Program-made: the position numbers and the translations under genes
Part shown: in pieces, positions 1,186 to 46,827 of the stretch
Layout: every line of letters starts with the position of its first letter
Position numbering within the stretch: the stretch's first letter is position 1
Notes under the pieces: generated by a model
Databases searched by the model: none
What the model saw: the letters and a program-made list of their open reading frames with translations, nothing else
Told to the model about the DNA's origin: nothing
From: Candidatus Binatia bacterium
GTDB taxonomy: Bacteria; Desulfobacterota; Binatia; DP-6
Assembly: GCA_041496545.1 (NCBI GenBank)
Contig: JBGQET010000011.1
Span: forward strand, 3,731-67,730
Reading direction: 5' to 3'
Length of the DNA: 64,000 nt

Positions 1186-4599
<3,414 letters not shown>

Positions 4600-37463: not shown

Positions 37464-38201
37464 ATGACGATTCGTTCGCGCCTCGCGCTCGCCACCGTCG
37501 CCGCCGCCACGCTCCTCCGGGTCGCGCCCGTGCACGCGGCCGCCGACCTCGACTTCCGCGAGTCGCGCCTCCAGCACGTCTGCAAGGGGGGGAACAACGG
37601 CGGCAACGTCTGCTGCAACGACGGCGACTGCCCCGGCGGCACGTGCATCGTCGACTACCTCTCGACGAAGAAGATCTCCGGCACGCTCACGCTCGTCATC
37701 GACAACGACGTCAGCAACATCGACGGCGGCCGGCTCGCCGGCGTCCAGGTCCGCTCCCTCACCACCATCCTCGAGCTGAAGGGCAAGGGCCCGATCCTGG
37801 CGCAGACCTTCCAGAAGCTCGACGGCCAGAACCTCCAGAGCCTGGTGAGCGGCCTCACCGAGGGTCCGACGGACCAGTTCGGCTTCAACTCGAGCGAGGG
37901 GCTGCTGGCCGAGAACGCGCAGCCCGGCGGCGCCGGCACGGTCCTCGACGTGAGCTTCCTCTTCTTCCGCAGCGTCGACGACGAGACGTTGAAGGCGATC
38001 CGGCTGGAGGTCGGGCTCCCGCCGACGGGGCCCGAGCTGCTCGTCGTGCAGGGGGACAAGGCCAGCCCGGTGCGCTTCGAAAATCACTTCGCGCCAGAGA
38101 ACGCGGGCGACATCGACTCGCACGACAACGACCCCTTCTCCTCGGTCCTGCGTGCCAAGGTGACGCTGCGCTTCGTGCTGCCGAAGCCGCCGCAGTGCTG
38201 A
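37464..38201 (+). CDS. Secreted hypothetical protein with N-terminal Cys module
   Basis: AAGGAGG SD; signal peptide; CKGGNNGGNVCCNDGDCPGGTC. Confidence 0.8.
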   Translation: MTIRSRLALATVAAATLLRVAPVHAAADLDFRESRLQHVCKGGNNGGNVCCNDGDCPGGTCIVDYLSTKKISGTLTLVIDNDVSNIDGGRLAGVQVRSLTTILELKGKGPILAQTFQKLDGQNLQSLVSGLTEGPTDQFGFNSSEGLLAENAQPGGAGTVLDVSFLFFRSVDDETLKAIRLEVGLPPTGPELLVVQGDKASPVRFENHFAPENAGDIDSHDNDPFSSVLRAKVTLRFVLPKPPQC

Positions 38202-38213
38202 ACGCGGCGCCGC

Positions 38214-38864
38214 TCAGCCGCGCATGCCGGTGGCGGCGGCGGCCGGATGGAGGCTCGCCTCGGCGCTCGGGCGCGCGCGGACACGCTCGAGCCATCCGCC
38301 CACGTTCCGCAGCGACGGGTCGAGCGGCTGGCCGACGGACCCGCCGAAGTCGAGCGCGGCGTAGAGGATGATGTCCGCGATCGTGAAGCGGTCGCCGACG
38401 ATGAAGCGCCGGCCGGCGATCAGCGGGTCGAGCCAACGGAGCTTGTCGCGCACGATCGCCTTGAGACCGTCGGCCGCCTCGGGCAGCACGCGCATCCGCT
38501 CGCGGAAGAGCTCCAGACCCTCGGCGTAGCGGAAGCCGTTGTAGAGGTGCTCGGTGATGCCGAGCTCGACGCGACGCTGCCACATGCGGGTCTCCGCCCG
38601 CTCCTCGGGCGTCGTCCCGATGAGGGGCGGCGTCGGGTGGCGCTCCTCGAGGTACTCGAAGATCGCCACCGTCTCGCCGATCGTGCGGCCGTCGTCGAGC
38701 TCCAGCGCGGGCACCTGCCCGCCCGGGTTCTTCGTCAGGTAGACGCCCCGGCGGTTCTCCGCGCCGAGCAGGTCGACCTGCAGGCTCGGCAGCGTGAGGC
38801 CTTTCTCCAGGAGGAACATGCGGAGCGCGCGGGGGTTCGGGCCGAAGGCGTCGTAGACTTTCAT
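38214..38864 (-). CDS. Glutathione S-transferase family
   Basis: GPNPR, KNPGGQVPALELDDG, ETVAI, GDRFTIADI. Confidence 0.92.
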   Translation of the reverse strand: MKVYDAFGPNPRALRMFLLEKGLTLPSLQVDLLGAENRRGVYLTKNPGGQVPALELDDGRTIGETVAIFEYLEERHPTPPLIGTTPEERAETRMWQRRVELGITEHLYNGFRYAEGLELFRERMRVLPEAADGLKAIVRDKLRWLDPLIAGRRFIVGDRFTIADIILYAALDFGGSVGQPLDPSLRNVGGWLERVRARPSAEASLHPAAAATGMRG

Positions 38865-38940
38865 GCCGTGCCTCGTAGCACCCCGGCGCCCCCGGCTCCA
38901 GATCCTTCTCAAGGCGCGCGGCGTGCAGTAGAGCCTCTCG

Positions 38941-40275
38941 GTGCTCGACCGTCTGTTCGCGCTCCGCGCCCGCGGCACCGACGTCGCGACCGAGCTGCTC
39001 GGCGGCGCCACCACCTTCGTCACGCTCTCCTACGTCGTCGTGGTGCAGCCGGCGGTCATGGCGACGACCGGCATGGACGCCGGCGCGGTCTTCACCGCGA
39101 CCTGCCTGGCGGCCGCCGCAGCGACGCTCACGATGGGGCTCTGGGCGCGCTACCCCATCGCGGTCGCGCCGGCGATGGGGCACAACTTCTACTTCGCGCT
39201 CGTGGTCGCGGGGCCGGTCGCGGCGGGCGGGCTCGGCTACCCGTGGCCGGTCGCGCTCGGCGCCAACTGCCTCGCCGGCGTCGCGTTCCTCGTGCTGTCC
39301 CTGGTCGGGTTGCGGGAGCGATTGATCGACGCCATCCCCGACAGTCTCAAGCACGCCATCGCCGCCGGCATCGGGCTCCTGATCGCGTTCGTCGGGCTCC
39401 AGTGGGCGGGGCTCGTGCGCCGTGCGCCCGGGACGCTGGTCGCGCTCGGCGACCTGCACCAGCCGGCGGCAGTGGTGGCCGCGGGCGGCATCCTCGTGAC
39501 CGGCGCGCTCGGCGCGCGCCGCGTGCGCGGCGCGATCCTCCTCGGCACCCTCGCGACGGGCGTGGCGGCCTGGGCGGCGGGGCTCGTGCCGTACCACGGA
39601 ATCGTCGCCGCGCCGCCCTCGCTCGCGCCGACGTTCGCGCATCTCGACGTCCGCGCCGCGCTCCGGCCCGACCTGGTGCCGGTCGTCTTCGTGCTGTTCT
39701 TCCTGGGCCTCTTCGACACGGTCGGCACGCTCGTCGGCATCGCCGAGCAGGCCGGCTTCCTGGTCGACGGCCGGTTGCCGCGGGCGCGCGAGGCGATGGC
39801 GACCGACGCGCTCGGCACGATCGTCGGCACGGTGCTCGGCACCTCGACGCTCACGGCGTACGTCGAGAGCGCGGCAGGCGTCGCGGAGGGTGCGCGCACC
39901 GGCCTCGCCAACGTCGCGACGGCCGCGCTCCTGGTGGCCGCGCTCTTCTTCGCGCCGCTCGCGCGCATGGCCGGGACGCCGGTCCAGGTCGGCGACGCCA
40001 CCTGCTACCCGGTCGTCGCACCGGCGCTCGTCATGGTGGGAAGCTTCATGATCCGGGGCGTTGCCCGGCTCCGCTTCGACGACCCGCCGGCCGCGCTCGC
40101 TTCGTTCCTCGTGCTCGTCACCATGCCATTCACCTTCTCGATCACCGAGGGCATCGCCTTCGGGTTCATCAGCTACGCCGTCCTCATGCTGGCCGCCGGC
40201 CGGGCGCGCGAGGTGCACCCGCTCCTCTGGGCGTTCGCGGTGCTGCTCGCGGCCCGCTACGCGTTCCTCCTGTGA
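38941..40275 (+). CDS. NCS2/AzgA purine permease
   Basis: APAMGHNFYF, AGIGLLIAF, FDTVGT, YVESAAG..GARTGL, MPFTFSI. Confidence 0.93.
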   Translation: MLDRLFALRARGTDVATELLGGATTFVTLSYVVVVQPAVMATTGMDAGAVFTATCLAAAAATLTMGLWARYPIAVAPAMGHNFYFALVVAGPVAAGGLGYPWPVALGANCLAGVAFLVLSLVGLRERLIDAIPDSLKHAIAAGIGLLIAFVGLQWAGLVRRAPGTLVALGDLHQPAAVVAAGGILVTGALGARRVRGAILLGTLATGVAAWAAGLVPYHGIVAAPPSLAPTFAHLDVRAALRPDLVPVVFVLFFLGLFDTVGTLVGIAEQAGFLVDGRLPRAREAMATDALGTIVGTVLGTSTLTAYVESAAGVAEGARTGLANVATAALLVAALFFAPLARMAGTPVQVGDATCYPVVAPALVMVGSFMIRGVARLRFDDPPAALASFLVLVTMPFTFSITEGIAFGFISYAVLMLAAGRAREVHPLLWAFAVLLAARYAFLL

Positions 40276-40402
40276 AGGGCGCTCGGCGTTGACGGACGCG
40301 GCACGCCGGGCGTAGGGCATGGTCGATCACCAGCGGCCGAGGACGACTAGCCGGGGGCGCGCGCCGCGCGTCAGGACGGCGTGCTGCTGACGCCGACCCG
40401 CA

Positions 40403-41248
40403 TCAGAGCGTGGGCACGCCGCGGCGCGGGCGGCCGCGCGGGAAGGCGCGCTCGAGCCGGCACACGTCGTCGGCCGAGAGGCGGAGATCGGCGGCGGCCG
40501 CGTTCTCGCGCACGTGCGTGAGGCTCGACGCCTTCGGGATGGTGAACGTCCCCGGCTCGCGGACGAGGAAGGCGAGCGCCACCTGCCGCGGCGTGGCGCC
40601 GTGCGCGCGCGCGATGTCGGTCAGGACCCGGCCACTGGGAGTTGACGCCGAGGGGAAGTGCCCGGAGCCGAACGGGCTGTAGCCGACGAGCGCGACCTCC
40701 CACTCGTGGCACCAGCGCAGGACGGCGTGCTCGATGGCGCGCTCCTCCAGGTGGTAGAGTACCTGGTTGCAGGCGATCCGCCCCGGCCCCGCGAGCGCCT
40801 GCGCTTCTTCCATCTCGTCCACCGCGAAGTTGCTGACGCCCCAGAAGCGGATCTTGCCGTCGCGCACGAGCTGCTCGAAGGCGCGGATGGTCTCTGCGAG
40901 CGGATGGCTGCCGGGCCAGTGGAGCAAGTAGAGGTCGAGGCGGTCGGTGCCGAGTCGCCGGAGGCTCGCTTCGCAGGCGCTGAGCGTGGCGGTGAAGCTC
41001 GCGTTCCGCGGCAACACCTTCGAGGCGAGGAAGACCTCGTCGCGCCGCCCCGCGATCGCCGCGCCGACCAGCTCTTCGACTCGCCCCGTGCCGTACATCT
41101 CCGCCGTGTCCACGTGCGTGAGCCCCAGGTCGAGCCCGACCCGCAGCGCGGCGAGCGCGGCTCGGCGGTCGTCGCGCTCGAGGTTCCACGTGCCCTGGCC
41201 GATGACCGGGACGTCGACGTTCGTGGGTCCGAAGGCGCGTCGCGTCAC
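40403..41248 (-). CDS. Aldo/keto reductase
   Basis: IGQGTW, DTAEMYG, SLRRLGTDRLDLYLLHWP, GVSNF, IPKAS. Confidence 0.93.
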   Translation of the reverse strand: MTRRAFGPTNVDVPVIGQGTWNLERDDRRAALAALRVGLDLGLTHVDTAEMYGTGRVEELVGAAIAGRRDEVFLASKVLPRNASFTATLSACEASLRRLGTDRLDLYLLHWPGSHPLAETIRAFEQLVRDGKIRFWGVSNFAVDEMEEAQALAGPGRIACNQVLYHLEERAIEHAVLRWCHEWEVALVGYSPFGSGHFPSASTPSGRVLTDIARAHGATPRQVALAFLVREPGTFTIPKASSLTHVRENAAAADLRLSADDVCRLERAFPRGRPRRGVPTL

Positions 41249-41301: not shown

Positions 41302-41330
41302 TGGACACGACGCGGTCTCGCCGCTACCAT
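41302..41330 (+). promoter_or_regulatory. Sigma70-type promoter
   Basis: TGGACA-17-TACCAT. Confidence 0.6.
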
Positions 41331-41490
41331 CGTCGTGGGTTCCGTGGGTTCCCGACCGAGGCTCACACAGGCCTCGTGCCCGGGGCAGTCACCGGGGGTC
41401 GGGGCCGGGGGACGGCATCGGCGGTCGCCTCCCGGCGGCGGGGACTCGGGTCCCGCCTGGTTTCCTCGCCGAGAGAAAGGAGGTGGTCCA

Positions 41491-41535
41491 GTGACGATAT
41501 CCCCTACGGTGATCTGTGAGGTGGTGGCCTCCTAG
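41491..41535 (+). CDS. Putative 14-aa peptide MTISPTVICEVVAS
   Basis: GTG start directly after AGAAAGGAGGTGGTCCA; TAG at 41533-41535. Confidence 0.45.
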   Translation: MTISPTVICEVVAS

Positions 41536-41589
41536 GGCTGATCCATCTTCACGTCACTGGGTCACTCTTCGAGGACCCAGGCACCACCG

Positions 41590-41663
41590 GACCCCGATGG
41601 TTCCCCGCAGTCACCGGCGGGGGCGGCTGCAGGCCGCGATAAGCCATCGGGGTCTTATTTTAT
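41590..41663 (+). terminator. Terminator-like branched stem with T-tract
   Basis: GACCCCGATGGTT / AGCCATCGGGGTC followed by TTATTTTAT. Confidence 0.6.
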
Positions 41664-41836
41664 CTGGGGGCCCATCCGGTGCTCGCGTCGGGCGCGCGCG
41701 GCGCGCACCCGACGCTCCGCTCCTCCGATGCCCCCAGACCCCGTCGGCCAGCTCGGCCGCTCTCGCGGCCGGCCTCCCTTTAAGGAAGGGCGCTCGGGGC
41801 TCGGCGCTCGCGCGCGGACGCGCTCGCGGTCGGCTC

Positions 41837-42639: not shown

Positions 42640-43413
42640 TCACTCGTGGCGCGTCGTGATGCCGCCGTCCACCGGGATGACGGCGCCCGTCAGGTACGCC
42701 CCGGCGCGCGAGGCGAGATAGATCGCCGTGCCGGCCATGTCCTCGGGTTCGCCGATCCGGCCCAGCGGGCAGGAGCCGACGATCACGTCACGGAAGCGCT
42801 CGAGGGTCTCGTGCATCATCTTGCTCTCGAACGGGCCGGGCGCGATCGCGTTCACCGTGATGCCGCTCGAGGCGAGCCGATGGGCGAGGACGCGCGTCAG
42901 GTGGTGCACGGCGGCCTTGCTCGACGAGTAGGCGTATGTCTCCAGGGTCGGGACCTGGAGGCCGTCGATCGAGCCGATGTTGATGACGCGCGCCGGGTCG
43001 CCCGGGCGGACCGCTTTCTCGAGCAGCGGCAGGAACGCGCGGGTCAAGTGGAAGACGCTCTTCACGTTCGTGGCGAGGACCTTGTCCCACGCCGCGTCCG
43101 GGTACTCGCCGAGCGGCGCGCCCCAGTTGGTGCCCGCGTTGTTCACGAGGATGTGGAGCGCGCGCTCGCGCGCGGTGACTGCGTCCGCGAGCTGCCGCGC
43201 GCCGCCCTCGGTCGAGAGGTCCGCGGGCACGGAGACGCAGGTGCCGGCGCGCGACAGCTCGGCCGCCACGCGGTCGCATACGTCCGCCTTGCGCGAGGAG
43301 ATGTAGACCTTGGCGCCCGCCTCGACGAAGCCGCGCGCGATCATGAGCCCGATGCCGCGCGACCCGCCGGTCACCAACGCCGTCTTGCCCGCGATCGAGA
43401 AGAGGTCCGTCAT
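42640..43413 (-). CDS. SDR oxidoreductase
   Basis: TGGSRGIG, NNAG, YSSSKAA, NAIAPG. Confidence 0.93.
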   Translation of the reverse strand: MTDLFSIAGKTALVTGGSRGIGLMIARGFVEAGAKVYISSRKADVCDRVAAELSRAGTCVSVPADLSTEGGARQLADAVTARERALHILVNNAGTNWGAPLGEYPDAAWDKVLATNVKSVFHLTRAFLPLLEKAVRPGDPARVINIGSIDGLQVPTLETYAYSSSKAAVHHLTRVLAHRLASSGITVNAIAPGPFESKMMHETLERFRDVIVGSCPLGRIGEPEDMAGTAIYLASRAGAYLTGAVIPVDGGITTRHE

Positions 43414-43518
43414 GGGCGGCGACCATAGCTGCCAGCGGACCGCGAAGGGAAGGACCTCCGCACGACTCCCCCGCCGGCCGCTTGACTGCCGCGCGCCGAC
43501 CCTCCTAGCTTCGGCGCG

Positions 43519-44700
43519 ATGGCGACCTTCCGCTTCCCCGCCGGCTTCACGTGGGGCACCGCGACCGCGGCGCACCAGGTCGAGGGCGGCAACTGGAACA
43601 ACGACTGGTGGATGTGGGAGCACGACCCCGGCTCCCCCTGCCAGGAGCCGAGCGGCGACGCGTGCGACTCGTGGCATCGCTGGCCCGAGGACGTCGGGCT
43701 CCTCGCCGACCTCGGCTTCAACGCCTACCGCTTCTCGCTCGAGTGGAGCCGCATCGAGCCCGAGGAGGGCGAGTTCTCCCGCGCGACGCTCGACCACTAC
43801 CGTCGCATGTGCGCCGCGTGCCTCGAGCGGGGCCTCGAGCCGATCGTCACCTTCCACCACTTCACCACGCCGCGCTGGGTGGTCGCGCGCGGCGGCTGGA
43901 CGGAGCCCGCGACCGCCGACCGCTTCGCGCGCTTCTGCGCCCGCGCGAGCGAGAGCCTCGGCGACGTGATCGGCCGCGCCTGCACGCTGAACGAGCCCAA
44001 CATCGTCGCGACGATGGGCTACCTCTACACGATCTTCCCGCCCGGCGCGCGCGACCCCGAGCTGCGCCGGCGCGCCAACGACGTCCTCATCGCCGCGCAC
44101 CGCATGGCGGTCGAGGCGATCCACGCCGGGCCCGGCACGGCACCCGTGGGGCTCACGCTCGCGATGTCGGACTACCAGGCGCTGCCCGGCGGCGAGGCCG
44201 TGCGCGACCTCTACCGGCGCGACATGGAGGACGTCTTCCTCGAGGCGGCGCGCGGTGACGACTTCCTCGGCGTGCAGTGCTACTCGCGCACGCGCTTCGG
44301 GCCCGAGGGTATGCTCCACCCCGAGCACGGCGTGCCGGTCACGCAGATGGGCTACGAGTTCTGGCCCGAAGCGCTCGGCGCGACCATCCGGCGCGCCGCC
44401 GCCGTGGCTCCGGGCGTGCCGCTCCTGGTCACCGAGAACGGCATCTCGACCGAGCGTGACGCCGAGCGCATCGAGTACGTCGGGCGCGCGCTGCTGAGCG
44501 TCATCGACTGCCTGCAGGACGGGCTCGACGTCCGCGGCTACGTCTACTGGAGCCTGCTCGACAACTTCGAATGGGTCCTCGGTTACCGTCCGACCTTCGG
44601 GCTGGTGGCCGTCGACCGCACGACGCAAGCGCGCACCGAGAAGCCGAGCGCCCACTGGCTCGGGGCGATCGCGCGGGCGAACGCGCTGACCGTCGGCTGA
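43519..44700 (+). CDS. Glycoside hydrolase family 1
   Basis: WGTATAAHQVEG, YRFSLEWSRI, TLNEP, VTENG, WSLLDNFEW; TTGACT-18-TAGCTT promoter. Confidence 0.95.
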   Translation: MATFRFPAGFTWGTATAAHQVEGGNWNNDWWMWEHDPGSPCQEPSGDACDSWHRWPEDVGLLADLGFNAYRFSLEWSRIEPEEGEFSRATLDHYRRMCAACLERGLEPIVTFHHFTTPRWVVARGGWTEPATADRFARFCARASESLGDVIGRACTLNEPNIVATMGYLYTIFPPGARDPELRRRANDVLIAAHRMAVEAIHAGPGTAPVGLTLAMSDYQALPGGEAVRDLYRRDMEDVFLEAARGDDFLGVQCYSRTRFGPEGMLHPEHGVPVTQMGYEFWPEALGATIRRAAAVAPGVPLLVTENGISTERDAERIEYVGRALLSVIDCLQDGLDVRGYVYWSLLDNFEWVLGYRPTFGLVAVDRTTQARTEKPSAHWLGAIARANALTVG

Positions 44701-44730
44701 GGCACTTCCCAAGCAGGCCCGAGAAGGGCT

Positions 44731-46827
44731 ATGGCCCGTAGCATGCGAACCACTGCGATGCTCTCGCTCGTGGCGGCGCTCGCGGCCGCGGTCCCGGCGG
44801 CAGCCGCCGGACGCTTCGTCGTCGGCGCCGCCGCGGCCGACATCACGCCGCCCCTCGCCGCGACCGCCGCCTCGAACCCCGCCGACTGCGACGCGAGCGG
44901 GACCTTCACCGGCCCGCACCTCTTCTCGCTCGAGGAGCCGTACAAGGACCTGAACGGCAACGGCCGCTACGACGCCAACCCGGAGGACGGCGGCCCCGAG
45001 CCGTTCGTCGACTGCCCCACGCCCACCGCGAACGGCGGCGTGCGTCCGCCCGACGCCCGCTGGGACGGCATCTACCTCGACGGCGGCAACGGCCAGAACC
45101 GGATCCCGACGCAGGTGCTCGACCCGATCTGGGCGCGCTCGATCGTCGTCGGCAACGGCACGCACAAGATCGCGATCACGGTCGCCGACCAGGAGGGTGT
45201 CTTCAAGGAGATATGGGACCTCGTCCGCCAGAAGGTGCACGCCGACGGAGGCTTCGGCCTCGACGAGATGTTCATCAGCTCGACGCACGACGAGTCCGCT
45301 CCCGACACGATCGGCATCGGCGGCCCCAATCAGTTCACGTCGGGCGTCGATCCCTTCTACGTCGAGTTCATGGTGGCGCAGACGGCGCGCTCGATCGAGG
45401 ACGCCGCCCGGAACGCGCGCCCGGCGACGATCCGCTTCGGGCAGATCCATCCCGACGACCTGATCCCGTGCCATTCGTCGTACCCGTTCGTCGCGGACGA
45501 GCAGGTGGGGGTCATGCAAGCCCGGGACTCGAAGGGCCGCGTGATCGCGACGCTCATCAACTACGGCATTCACGCCGAGGAGCTGGGCTTCTCCGACGAC
45601 GACCAGGACCGGCTCCACCTCTCCTCCGACTGGCCGCACTTCGCGCGCCAGGCGCTCGAGCAGCGCTACGGCGGCGTCGCGGTGACGATGGCGGGTCCGG
45701 TCGGCTCGGTCGAGATGCCGAAGGTCTTCGACGGCCCCCGCTCCTTCGTTCCCACGGAGACGCACAGCGTGCCGGGCAACGGCGGCTGCCGGACGATCTA
45801 CGACACCGACGGTACCTTCGCGCCCTACGGCTACACGCTCTCCAACGAGCTGCGCGGCGAGCGCCTCGCGACCTGGGCGGGCCGGGCGCTCGACGCCGGT
45901 GCCGAGTCGCGGAGCAACACCATCGCCTTCGCGCGCGAGAGCCTCATCCTCCACCTCGACAACGAGCTCTTCCAGCTCGCCGGCTTGTTCGGCGTCTTCA
46001 CCTACAAACGGACCTACCTGGGTGACGTCCTCCAGCCGCAAGCCCCGAACGGCGCCGAGACCGGCGACTCGTCGAAGACCGACATCGGCTGGTACACGAT
46101 CGGCGACGCGCAGTTCGTCACCGCTCCGGGCGAGGTGTTCCCGTTCACCTACGAGCACGACTTCAGCGGCCCGGCCGACCTCGCGATCCCCCAGTTCGGC
46201 GGCGTGCACGGCTGGGTGCTGGGCGCGATGAGCGGGGAGTGGCGCTTCATCGAAGGCCTCGGCGAGGACATGCTCGGCTACATCTTCCCGCGCTCGAACG
46301 CGGTCGACGTGCCGACCCCCGAGCACCTGATGAACGACCCCGGTGACACCGACCGCTTCGGCTGCGGCCACTCCGACGACGGCGAAGCCGCGGCCGAGAA
46401 CACGGGCGACGTGGTGAACGACGCGCTGATCGCGCTCCTCACCCCCGCGCCCCACCAGCAGGTGCTCGTCGGTCGCTACGTCTGGCCCGACGGCACGCTG
46501 CACCGCAACCCGATCGGCGAAGGCCGCCTCGGCTGCGACGCGGCGTCACGCACCTTCACCCCCGCCCCCGGCGGGGGCGCGGTCGGCGTCTGGGTCCTCC
46601 CCCCCGGCAAGACCGACTTTGCCCCCGGCGTCGGGAACATCTATCGCGTCCGCGACTCCGCCGTCCTCGGCCCCGCCCGCCACCAGGCCCGCTGGATGAA
46701 CGTCCGCGGCCGCCCCCAAGACCAAGCCGGCACCCAGACGCGCGGCGTCTTGGTCGGCAAGCGCCAGCGCGTATGGGTCGACGTCTTCCCGGAAACGAGC
46801 GGCATGACGCGGATCCCGAGCGTCTAG
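44731..46827 (+). CDS. Secreted neutral/alkaline ceramidase-like protein
   Basis: Signal peptide; GAAAADITP, DPIWARS, STHDESAPD, NYGIHAE, TAPGE; EF-hand-like DLNGNGRYD. Confidence 0.65.
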   Translation: MARSMRTTAMLSLVAALAAAVPAAAAGRFVVGAAAADITPPLAATAASNPADCDASGTFTGPHLFSLEEPYKDLNGNGRYDANPEDGGPEPFVDCPTPTANGGVRPPDARWDGIYLDGGNGQNRIPTQVLDPIWARSIVVGNGTHKIAITVADQEGVFKEIWDLVRQKVHADGGFGLDEMFISSTHDESAPDTIGIGGPNQFTSGVDPFYVEFMVAQTARSIEDAARNARPATIRFGQIHPDDLIPCHSSYPFVADEQVGVMQARDSKGRVIATLINYGIHAEELGFSDDDQDRLHLSSDWPHFARQALEQRYGGVAVTMAGPVGSVEMPKVFDGPRSFVPTETHSVPGNGGCRTIYDTDGTFAPYGYTLSNELRGERLATWAGRALDAGAESRSNTIAFARESLILHLDNELFQLAGLFGVFTYKRTYLGDVLQPQAPNGAETGDSSKTDIGWYTIGDAQFVTAPGEVFPFTYEHDFSGPADLAIPQFGGVHGWVLGAMSGEWRFIEGLGEDMLGYIFPRSNAVDVPTPEHLMNDPGDTDRFGCGHSDDGEAAAENTGDVVNDALIALLTPAPHQQVLVGRYVWPDGTLHRNPIGEGRLGCDAASRTFTPAPGGGAVGVWVLPPGKTDFAPGVGNIYRVRDSAVLGPARHQARWMNVRGRPQDQAGTQTRGVLVGKRQRVWVDVFPETSGMTRIPSV

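What the first reader, a model, noticed from the sequence alone, without database searches (positions are those of the whole stretch)
41302..41663. Self-contained structured transcript with an 18-nt anti-16S sequence, a 14-codon ORF and a folding switch
Seen: (a) promoter TGGACA-17-TACCAT. (b) 5' three-way junction closed by 41351-57/41397-403 and 3' three-way junction closed by 41590-602/41642-54 plus T-tract, each carrying an identical GCAGTCACCGG (41385-95, 41607-17). (c) AGAAAGGAGGTGGTCCAG (41474-91), then GTG-TISPTVICEVVAS-TAG. (d) 41482-96 can pair with 41552-66 (15 bp including G-U), hiding the SD and start, while the competing hairpin CTGGGTC/GACCCAG (41557-63/41574-80) would partly free them. 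Known: the typical 16S 3' end is CUGGAUCACCUCCUUUCU, so complementarity is 18/18 with one G-U, far beyond a normal SD and into helix 45. Inference: an undescribed RNA system, such as a 30S-capturing or hibernation RNA, a type I toxin-like mRNA, or a regulated micro-peptide. No downstream same-strand gene exists for it to attenuate.
Basis: partly seen in the sequence, partly recalled or inferred. Interest (0 to 1): 0.85.

Follow-up and report, generated by a model that had tools for sequence, protein, structure and literature searches.

The report
Translated small RNA with 16S-complementary leader
This is a self-contained small-RNA gene, a distant relative of the uncharacterised sRNA Ms_IGR-5, that carries an 18-base match to the end of 16S rRNA and a tiny conserved reading frame, so it probably engages ribosomes to regulate something.

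Summary
The element is not an undescribed family. Rfam's Ms_IGR-5 model (RF02471, "Actinobacteria sRNA") matches 41469-41661 end to end at 31.5 bits, below its 45-bit cut-off (E 2.6e-5). A motif search shows the same design in Mycobacterium and Micromonospora, which score above the cut-off. It also appears in Acidobacteriota, Methylomirabilota, Nitrospirota, Myxococcota and other MAGs, which no Rfam family covers.

The shared core has four parts:
- a 16-18 nt complement of the 16S 3' tail, unique in this genome;
- an in-frame start codon;
- a 12-19 codon ORF;
- an internal SD-like GUGAGGUGG placed exactly 8 nt before the stop.

146 of 147 loci show the start, ORF and stop spacing; the exception is a chance hit. 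The peptide varies while the nucleotides do not, so the constraint is on RNA plus reading frame.

A helix between the SD-like box and a downstream CCACC box covaries. Masking of the main SD by a 16S-tail mimic, with a competing hairpin 2.4 kcal/mol away, is specific to this lineage.

No function is published in what I could search. My best reading is a ribosome-engaging, translation-gated regulatory RNA. The mechanism is inferred.

The parts
41302..41330 (+). Promoter-like site: -35 TGGACA (41302-07), 17-nt spacer, -10 TACCAT (41325-30). The start near 41337 is inferred, not mapped.
   Evidence: 1 site found, 0 expected from shuffles. Hexamers align in relatives.
41335..41352 (+). Tandem 9-nt duplication, GTGGGTTCC twice, at the predicted 5' end. 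Relatives have one copy. The second copy can pair with 41574-79 in the SD-masked fold.
   Evidence: The 5'-end helix is only 74% paired in relatives.
41351..41470 (+). 5' domain, the 'long form'. Junction stem 41351-57/41397-403 with hairpins 41358-63/41370-75 and 41379-83/41392-96. Then hairpin 41404-16/41424-36 with a conserved CGGCGG loop, and a hairpin starting at 41437.
   Evidence: helices 90-94% paired with 3-8 compensatory pairs each. The Rfam model does not cover this domain. It is shared with Methylomirabilota-type relatives.
41474..41491 (+). SD1: an 18-nt complement of the 3' tail of this genome's 16S rRNA, with one G.U.
41491..41535 (+). Micro-ORF: GTG start, 14 sense codons (V/M-TISPTVICEVVAS), TAG stop.
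   Evidence: In-frame start and fixed stop in 146 of 147 pattern loci. ORF indels come in multiples of 3.
41516..41524 (+). SD2: internal SD-like box GTGAGGTGG, ending 8 nt before the stop codon.
   Evidence: Invariant in 27 of 28 relatives, AAGGTGG in one. The stop lies exactly 5 codons after GAG in 146 of 147 loci.
41553..41570 (+). aSD1: a mimic of the 16S tail that pairs with SD1 and the start codon (41479-95).
   Evidence: 16 pairs, 89% paired in relatives. Specific to this family.
41557..41580 (+). Competing hairpin CTGGGTC/GACCCAG (41557-63/41574-80), which would free SD1.
   Evidence: 2.4 kcal/mol above the MFE; 10 pairs, 90% paired, 3 compensatory.
41581..41588 (+). aSD2: the CCACC-containing box (GCACCACC) that pairs with 41520-27 inside the ORF.
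   Evidence: 8 pairs, 89% paired, 3 compensatory. Cross-phylum covariation.
41589..41666 (+). 3' three-way junction and terminator. Stem 41589-602/41642-55; inner hairpins 41603-08/41617-22 (loop with conserved UCACC) and 41623-28/41632-37; interrupted U-tract from 41654.
   Evidence: 8 of 14 stem pairs compensatory, 95% paired.

Best explanation
What it is: a stand-alone, single-copy small-RNA gene of about 325 nt with its own promoter and terminator. It is a divergent 'long form' of the Ms_IGR-5 sRNA family, and that family is really a multi-phylum superfamily.

How I think it works:
1. The RNA is built to be engaged by ribosomes. SD1 pairs with the whole free 3' tail of 16S rRNA (18 nt).
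2. A 14-codon frame is then translated.
3. When the stop codon reaches the A site, the internal SD-like box GUGAGGUGG sits at initiation-like spacing from the P site, so it can hold the terminating ribosome.
4. In the free RNA both SD-like boxes are paired with internal look-alikes of the 16S tail: aSD1 (CUGGGUCACC) and aSD2 (CACCACC).
5. 30S binding and translation must displace these look-alikes and so refold the 3' domain.
6. The RNA therefore reports or buffers ribosome or anti-SD availability. Its output is either trans-action of the freed C-rich boxes and loops or titration of subunits.

Shown: homology, anatomy, conserved frame, covarying helices, and transcription and ribosome footprints in relatives. 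Inferred: steps 1-6 above, that is 30S capture, pausing at the stop, refolding and the output.
For: Homology:
- RF02471 matches 41469-41661 over model positions 1-184 of 184, E 2.6e-5. It is the only match in the genome, E 3.7e-5.
- Loci found with the shared motif score 172.7 bits (Mycobacterium), 116.3, 98.5 (Micromonospora) and 55.9 (a Zixibacteria MAG) against the same model.

Conservation:
- blastn finds the element in 34 of 41 related genomes and 23 of 24 of the same family, over nearly its full length at 77-85% identity.
- Against named loci only the element aligns, not its flanks.

Translation unit:
- 146 of 147 pattern loci have a stop exactly 5 codons after GAG and an in-frame ATG, GTG or TTG 7-16 nt after GGAGG. 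The pattern required neither.
- ORF indels come in threes.
- The codon before GAG is NGT (R, C, S or G), so the constraint is on GUGAGGUGG, not on residues.

16S match: 18 of 18, unique in the genome.

Structure:
- One search gives 101 pairs, 86% paired, 47 with changes on both sides against 24.2 +/- 3.2 in shuffles, with 16-26 in slid controls.
- SD2:aSD2: Watson-Crick extension beyond GGUGG:CCACC averages 2.29 nt against 0.35 +/- 0.06 (maximum 0.59) in 1000 permutations, in several variant classes.
- There are two folds 2.4 kcal/mol apart.

Expression in relatives:
- RNA-seq validated in S. lividans (PMC8079986, passage).
- An sRNA transcription unit in S. avermitilis (PMC8780764, passage).
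- NAD-capped, 'validated but uncharacterized' in M. smegmatis (bioRxiv 10.1101/2021.12.14.472595, passages).
- Significant ribosomal reads on MS_IGR-5 homologues in M. abscessus and M. smegmatis (PMC4974804, passage).
- Contigs of relatives covering 41473-41536 occur in RNA libraries of 4 studies. One 227-nt contig covers 41362-41586 with 14 differences.

Context: there is no conserved neighbour across lineages, and 5 of 5 other-phylum genomes hold one copy.
Against: - The Rfam hit is below the gathering score (31.5 against 45 bits).
- There is no transcript, footprint or 30S-binding datum for this organism. The RNA-library evidence is contigs of relatives, and DNA carry-over cannot be excluded.
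- SD1 masking is not a universal property. Over 111 unique elements the mean unpaired probability of SD1 was 0.28 against 0.30 for controls, lower in 57 of 111. Only this family shows the +31 partner.
- A first, looser test of SD2:aSD2 covariation was null, 7.76 against 7.73. The strict test counts related sequences that are not independent (for example 23 Micromonospora-type loci).
- The SD1:aSD1 helix and the competing hairpin each have only 3 compensatory pairs.
- 3-4 nt of the 18-nt match lie in helix 45 of 16S, which is paired in mature 30S (my knowledge of 16S structure). The CCAG may therefore serve internal pairing instead.
- No output, whether target, partner or phenotype, is known.
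Confidence: 0.45

Rival explanations
1. It is a pure 30S or anti-SD sponge, or a hibernation-type RNA. The RNA exists to hold small subunits, or to shield the 16S 3' tail, through the 16-18 bp duplex. The tiny ORF only lets trapped ribosomes run off.
For: The 18-nt match is unique in the genome. The purine-rich 5' extension reaches exactly to the mature 16S 3' end. A second SD-like box lies close to the stop. Relatives' contigs reach a high summed depth in one soil RNA library, up to 26,290 at the core in X19; this is a weak measure.
Against: The start codon, frame and stop position are kept in 146 of 147 loci, more than a run-off path needs. SD1 is masked in this lineage. Nothing shows stoichiometric abundance. 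Part of the match lies in helix 45 (my knowledge of 16S structure).
Confidence: 0.15
2. It is an ordinary base-pairing sRNA. Its C-rich boxes and loops (CACCACC, UCACC) bind G-rich ribosome-binding sites of target mRNAs, and the SD-like boxes exist only to fold it.
For: C-rich unpaired motifs are conserved. Its relative is catalogued as an sRNA. Heterologous Hfq is named in the title of the paper the M. smegmatis sRNA studies cite as their source; I did not see its text. It is a stand-alone gene with a terminator.
Against: This does not explain the conserved in-frame start, the fixed stop position, or the 16S complementarity running to the very 3' end. Ribosome footprints are reported on homologues (PMC4974804, passage).
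Confidence: 0.1
3. It is a micro-peptide gene, and the 12-19 residue peptide is the active product.
For: The ORF is conserved with a strong SD, and the C-terminal pattern x-E-V-[A/V]-x-x recurs.
Against: N-terminal residues and peptide length vary freely. The residue before E is R, C, S or G while its last two nucleotides are fixed. GAGGUGG is invariant at synonymous positions. The extensive conserved RNA structure outside the ORF would be unexplained.
Confidence: 0.08
4. It is a cis-acting leader, a ribosome-dependent attenuator, for a downstream gene.
For: In 13 Bryobacterales/Terriglobia loci the bL31 gene rpmE starts 217-335 nt after SD1 on the same strand. The gap after the U-tract was 32, 61 and 77 nt in the three loci where both were detected. 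In the 8 loci listed, the next sizeable ORFs beyond rpmE lie on the opposite strand.
Against: In the window the + strand ORFs downstream have no Pfam match. Neighbours differ between lineages: aminotransferase IV, THAP4-like, methyltransferase, aldehyde dehydrogenase, ABC transporter. One search found no recurrent same-strand downstream gene apart from rpmE.
Confidence: 0.07
5. It is a type I toxin-like mRNA with a metastable fold.
For: SD masking with an alternative fold resembles toxin mRNAs such as aapA1 (PMC6733600, search listing and abstract only).
Against: The peptide is 14 residues, not a membrane helix. No antisense promoter was found. The gene is single-copy and vertically conserved in a whole family. 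The peptide is not conserved.
Confidence: 0.02

Closest known systems
Ms_IGR-5 (Rfam RF02471, 'Actinobacteria sRNA', first reported in M. smegmatis)
   Same: The model aligns end to end. Both share the AAGGAGGUGGUCC leader, the GUGAGGUGG box, the CACC box before the terminator stem, and a stand-alone gene. Pattern-found relatives score above the family cut-off.
   Different: The window scores below the cut-off (31.5 against 45 bits). It has an extra 5' domain of about 135 nt that the model lacks. Its lineage is not labelled Actinobacteria: the nearest named record, identical over 1753 nt to a same-family genome, is a MAG labelled Deltaproteobacteria. No function is described for the family in the papers I could search.
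Leader-peptide attenuators that also act as liberated sRNAs (for example rnTrpL of Sinorhizobium; PMC6614838, search listing and abstract only)
   Same: A short translated ORF sits inside a small, terminated, structured RNA, and translation decides which helices form.
   Different: There is no downstream operon here. There are no runs of regulatory codons. Nucleotides, not codons, are conserved. The SD is extreme and there is an SD-like box before the stop.
Internal SD-like elements that hold elongating or terminating ribosomes (prfB frameshift site, translational coupling; my knowledge, not from a call)
   Same: An SD-like box lies inside an ORF at a fixed distance from a stop codon.
   Different: The spacing is relaxed, 8 nt to the stop. 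No second frame or restart codon is conserved (alternative-frame counts).
Mimicry or sponge RNAs (6S/Ms1 for RNA polymerase, CsrB for CsrA; Ms1: PMC4191392, search listing and abstract only)
   Same: A stable, structured, stand-alone RNA displays look-alikes of a partner's natural ligand. Here those are SD boxes and 16S-tail look-alikes.
   Different: The presumed partner would be the 30S subunit or 16S tail, and the RNA is itself translated. No binding is shown.
Extended SD motifs in mRNAs (S. aureus; PMC13009471, one passage)
   Same: Pairing extends beyond the canonical SD into the GAU of the 16S tail.
   Different: That paper highlights two extra base pairs. This element has 18 contiguous pairs, including the 3' terminal nucleotides and CUGG of helix 45.

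Membership tests
Ms_IGR-5 (RF02471) | Covariance-model score at or above the gathering threshold (45 bits) | tested here: not met
   31.5 bits, E 2.6e-5 in an 801-nt search. E 3.7e-5 per genome. No hit at gathering in the window.
Ms_IGR-5 (RF02471) | Full-length alignment to the model with its conserved sequence boxes | tested here: met
   Model positions 1-184 of 184 are aligned. GGAGGUGGUCC, UGUGAGGUGG, the CACC box and the terminator stem are aligned at high posterior probability.
Ms_IGR-5 (RF02471) | Shares a diagnostic architecture with bona fide members | tested here: met
   The motif taken from the window retrieves loci that score 55.9-172.7 bits against RF02471. All have the same ORF and stop geometry.
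Ms_IGR-5 (RF02471) | Discrete small transcript | tested here: inconclusive
   Promoter and terminator are predicted only. RNA-library contigs are of relatives. Transcripts are shown in Streptomyces and M. smegmatis homologues (PMC8079986, PMC8780764, bioRxiv 10.1101/2021.12.14.472595; passages).
Ms_IGR-5 (RF02471) | Actinobacterial host | tested here: not met
   A same-family genome is identical over 1753 nt to a record labelled 'Deltaproteobacteria bacterium' MAG. Pattern hits also come from Terriglobia, Rokubacteria/Methylomirabilota, Nitrospirota, Myxococcales, Thermodesulfobacteriota and Zixibacteria records.
Ribosome-dependent leader or attenuator | A regulated gene directly downstream on the same strand | tested here: not met
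   None is recognisable in the window. This is met only in 13 Bryobacterales/Terriglobia loci, with rpmE.
Ribosome-dependent leader or attenuator | A translated short ORF whose ribosome occupancy selects between alternative helices | tested here: inconclusive
   The ORF is conserved. The SD2:aSD2 helix lies in the ribosome's path. Alternative folds are predicted, not probed.
Type I toxin mRNA | Hydrophobic toxin peptide of about 20-60 residues plus an antisense or overlapping RNA | tested here: not met
   The peptide has 14 residues and a variable sequence. No promoter-like site lies on the minus strand.
tmRNA / tRNA-like | tRNA-like domain and tag ORF | tested here: not met
   ARAGORN found 0 genes in the window.

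The most novel reading that the evidence does not exclude
Ms_IGR-5 and its unannotated relatives may form a previously unrecognised, multi-phylum class of ribosome-engaging RNA. Such a single-copy gene would use two SD boxes, each masked by an internal copy of the 16S tail, to capture a 30S subunit and hold the terminating ribosome. It would thereby sense or set the pool of free anti-SD tails, for example to balance SD-led against leaderless translation, or to feed back on ribosomal-protein synthesis as its position upstream of rpmE in Bryobacterales hints.
Probability: 0.3. Interest if true: 0.9.

Novelty: new variant of a known kind. Interest (0 to 1): 0.68.

Why it matters
An sRNA catalogued since 2013 as an uncharacterised actinobacterial transcript turns out to have a strict, translation-centred architecture: an extreme SD, a micro-ORF, and an SD-like box 8 nt before the stop, masked by 16S-tail look-alikes.

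That architecture is kept in at least six phyla of mostly soil bacteria. The window adds a long form with an extra 5' domain and a clear bistable SD mask.

If the RNA does engage 30S subunits as designed, it would be a new kind of regulator acting on the ribosome's mRNA-recruiting tail. It is directly testable in M. smegmatis or Streptomyces.

At minimum, the Rfam family needs a wider seed and a note that it is translated.

Tried and rejected
- Rfam at gathering gave nothing in the window. tRNA/tmRNA search gave none.
- The canonical terminator scan found 0 sites, because the stem is a three-way junction with an interrupted U-tract.
- Cross-phylum synteny: no neighbour is shared beyond close relatives. 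The first clustering script timed out.
- Universal SD1 masking: not supported. An earlier version of that script timed out.
- The loose SD2:aSD2 permutation test, which allowed G.U and a 250-nt search space, gave no signal. It was replaced by a strict Watson-Crick test.
- Link to absence of ribosomal protein bS21: rejected. The bS21 family is present in G000 and in 3 of 4 other carriers tested, and absent only in the Mycobacterium genome.
- A second ORF or restart codon after SD2: alternative-frame stops are not conserved, and by eye no start codon follows SD2 in the Micromonospora type.
- The literature search with the 13-mers returned 924 papers because the sequence is the core of a common 16S PCR primer, so it was uninformative.
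- Searches for a described function and look-ups in PMC4633059, PMC9094748 and PMC12310071 found none. The original description (PMC3527728) is not held.
- Supplementary tables, for example the Ribo-seq dataset of PMC4974804 and the sRNA table of PMC10454040, were not opened and may hold expression data.
- Parts of the window without RNA-contig cover (before 41352 and after 41623) say nothing either way.
- Prevalence with the exact motif: 4 of 401 genomes of the window's own phylum, all four among the 14 of its own class. 3 of 81 genomes in an even sample of the Mycobacterium locus's phylum. One of those three, G454, is an unpublished genome, so that count rests partly on it. The motif is strict and these are lower bounds.
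Full report
**What is in the window.** Between a divergently transcribed aldo/keto reductase gene (40403-41248, minus strand; PF00248, E 3e-56) and a stretch with no recognisable gene lies a compact unit on the + strand.

It contains the only promoter-like site of the region, TGGACA-17-TACCAT at 41302-41330. About 330 nt of very stable predicted structure follows: -185.1 kcal/mol against -159.3 +/- 6.1 for shuffles, z -4.2. The unit ends in a three-way junction with an interrupted U-tract.

The 18-mer at 41474-91 is the reverse complement, with one G.U, of the last 18 nt of this genome's own 16S gene.

I laid the whole genome (4.7 Mb, 72.2% G+C) and scored all 17,757 GGAGG sites. Only this site and the antisense of the 16S gene reach 18 contiguous pairs; the runner-up is 14. 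The complementarity is therefore not a by-product of G+C content.

**It has a name, just barely.** Rfam at gathering thresholds reports nothing in the window. In E-value mode RF02471, Ms_IGR-5 ('Actinobacteria sRNA'), aligns over all 184 model positions to 41469-41661. The score is 31.5 bits against a cut-off of 45, E 2.6e-5, and this is the only match in the genome.

The model covers the stretch from SD1 to the terminator. The 5' domain (41351-41470) is outside it.

The literature I could reach treats the family as a validated but uncharacterised sRNA:
- It is transcribed in S. lividans (PMC8079986) and S. avermitilis (PMC8780764).
- In M. smegmatis it lies between MSMEG_5794 and MSMEG_5795 and is NAD-capped (bioRxiv 10.1101/2021.12.14.472595; PMC10454040).
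- It shows 'significant ribosomal reads' in M. abscessus and M. smegmatis (PMC4974804).

I saw only passages of each. No paper found describes its function, its 16S complementarity or its ORF. A 2025 review of dual-function sRNAs does not list it.

**Relatives.** blastn finds the element in 34 of 41 related genomes and 23 of 24 of the same family. Most same-family matches span nearly the whole ~320 nt of the element, at 77-85% identity. The aligned promoters, 5' domain, SD1, ORF and terminator are visible.

I searched one genome per species for SD1 followed within 15-45 nt by GTRAGGTGG. The hits were:
- Micromonospora, Mycobacterium, Nocardioides, Pseudonocardia and other Actinomycetota;
- MAGs labelled Terriglobia/Bryobacterales, Blastocatellia, Rokubacteria/Methylomirabilota, Nitrospirota, Myxococcales, Thermodesulfobacteriota and Zixibacteria.

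One hit (L047) is a chance match inside a gene.

Rfam's own model scores the Mycobacterium, Micromonospora and two other loci at 55.9-172.7 bits. It reports nothing for the Acidobacteriota, Nitrospirota, Methylomirabilota, Myxococcota and Thermodesulfobacteriota forms, and no other Rfam family covers them.

A genome of the window's own family is identical over 1753 nt to a record labelled 'Deltaproteobacteria bacterium', so the host is not actinobacterial by label. Between the window and the named loci only the element aligns, including part of the 5' domain at about 72% identity to Methylomirabilota-type loci.

Distribution is patchy:
- The exact motif is in 4 of 401 genomes of the window's phylum, all in its own class.
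- It is in 3 of 81 genomes of an even sample of the Mycobacterium locus's phylum (one of the three is an unpublished genome).
- 5 of 5 carriers from other phyla hold exactly one copy.

**The invariant core.** I examined 147 loci carrying the motif. In 146 of them, all but the chance hit:
- a stop codon falls exactly five codons after GAG, that is GAG GUG GNN NNN NNN stop;
- an in-frame ATG, GTG or TTG lies 7-16 nt after GGAGG.

The search pattern demanded neither. Peptides are 12-19 residues. Start codons are split evenly (49 ATG, 49 TTG, 48 GTG). Stops are TAG in 126, TAA in 10 and TGA in 10.

Only the C-terminal x-E-V-[A/V]-x-x recurs. The residue before E is R, C, S or G because its codon is NGT. 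Selection therefore acts on the nucleotides GUGAGGUGG and on the reading frame, not on a peptide.

GAGGUGG is itself complementary to the 16S tail. With the stop codon in the A site it would lie at about the distance from the P site that an SD has at initiation. That spacing argument rests on my knowledge of SD geometry.

**Structure.** On 28 relatives the structure with the SD-masked fold has 101 pairs and 86% of cells paired. 47 pairs change on both sides, against 24.2 +/- 3.2 in column shuffles and 16-26 when partners are slid. The best-supported helices are:
- the terminator stem: 8 of 14 pairs compensatory, 95% paired;
- the 5' domain helices: 3-8 compensatory pairs each.

The helix between 41520-27 inside the ORF (GGUGGUGG) and 41581-88 (GCACCACC) is 89% paired with 3 compensatory pairs.

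Across phyla, the bases after GGUGG change together with those before CCACC. The variant classes seen are CUG/CAG, CGG/(C)CG, UGA/UCA, UGC/GCA, UGU/ACA and UAG/(C)UA. The mean Watson-Crick extension is 2.29 nt, against 0.35 +/- 0.06 in 1000 permutations. This covers the 93 of 142 unique loci that have a CCACC in range; the others use variants such as CAGUCACC.

A looser earlier test was null, and related sequences inflate the strict one. I therefore call this helix well supported rather than proven.

A ribosome reading to the stop must melt this helix.

- In this genome SD1 and the start codon (41479-95) pair with 41553-70, whose sequence CUGGGUCACC copies the 16S tail. Forcing the competing hairpin 41557-63/41574-80 costs 2.4 kcal/mol.
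- In relatives both folds are equally compatible, 89% and 90% paired with 3 compensatory pairs each.
- Folding 111 unique elements shows this masking only in the window's family: unpaired probability 0.02-0.27 against 0.23-0.52 for controls.
- Methylomirabilota-type elements instead pair GGAGG with the CCUCC just before the stop. Actinomycetes pair GGUCC with GGAC inside the ORF. Overall there is no difference from controls, 0.28 against 0.30.

**Context and expression.** Neighbours differ between lineages and have no common theme.

The exception is 13 Bryobacterales/Terriglobia loci. There the bL31 gene rpmE starts 217-335 nt after SD1 on the same strand. The gap after the U-tract is 32, 61 and 77 nt in the three loci where both were detected. 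In the 8 loci I listed, the next sizeable ORFs beyond rpmE lie on the opposite strand. In that lineage the element may act as a leader.

For the window's organism I found only DNA runs holding the stretch. Four soil or sediment RNA libraries from four studies contain short contigs of relatives that cover the core 41473-41536. One 227-nt contig spans 41362-41586 with 14 differences. This shows presence in RNA libraries, not transcript ends or levels.

**Reading.** The element is a divergent long form of a widespread, single-copy, translated small RNA.

I think it works by engaging ribosomes. SD1 captures the 16S tail, the micro-ORF is read, and the SD-like box holds the terminating ribosome. 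In doing so the ribosome's tail replaces the RNA's internal tail look-alikes and refolds the 3' domain.

Whether the output is trans-action of the freed C-rich boxes, titration of subunits or, in some lineages, attenuation is not known. I put 0.45 on this reading.

The rivals, in order, are:
- a pure sponge;
- an ordinary base-pairing sRNA;
- a micro-peptide gene;
- a leader;
- a type I toxin, which is rejected.

Noticed in passing
window 41335-41352: A perfect tandem duplication of 9 nt, GTGGGTTCC twice, sits at the predicted 5' end of the RNA. Relatives carry one copy. It may shift the start site or the 5'-end pairing.
   Followed up: partly
window 42640-46503 (-): A 1287-codon ORF whose only Pfam matches are short-chain dehydrogenase domains in the last ~250 residues. 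The first ~1030 residues match nothing.
   Followed up: no
window 37885-40320 (-) and 38247-40292 (+): Two long overlapping ORFs on opposite strands, 811 and 681 codons. Neither has a Pfam match, so which is real is unresolved.
   Followed up: no
L039, L043, L045, L063, L076, L079, L082, L088, L099, L113, L123, L134, L145: In Bryobacterales/Terriglobia the element lies directly upstream of the ribosomal protein bL31 gene (rpmE) on the same strand. In the 8 of these loci listed the next sizeable ORFs beyond rpmE lie on the opposite strand. This may be a leader or attenuator use of the same RNA.
   Followed up: partly
L114 and L140 (element regions shown): These two elements carry extra sequence, estimated by eye at roughly 100-190 nt, between the stop codon and the CCUGGG hairpin. 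This shows a tolerated expansion site.
   Followed up: no
window 41480-41492; Methylomirabilota-type loci such as L069: SD1 coincides with the core of a widely used 16S rRNA reverse PCR primer (924 papers hold the 13-mers). In Methylomirabilota-type elements the identity extends through CCAGCCG. The gene is therefore a possible off-target priming site.
   Followed up: no
G436 contig C116 (element at 461-509, bS21 match at 4003-4164): In the Myxococcales-labelled MAG a bS21 gene lies about 3.5 kb from the element on the same strand. This is probably coincidence.
   Followed up: no
L083, L103 and other Mycobacteriales-type loci: In 7-8 related loci per gene cluster the element has conserved neighbours: a class IV aminotransferase-type gene and a GCV_T-type gene upstream, and a THAP4-like haem-binding gene and a DsrE-like gene downstream. 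This is lineage-level synteny only.
   Followed up: partly
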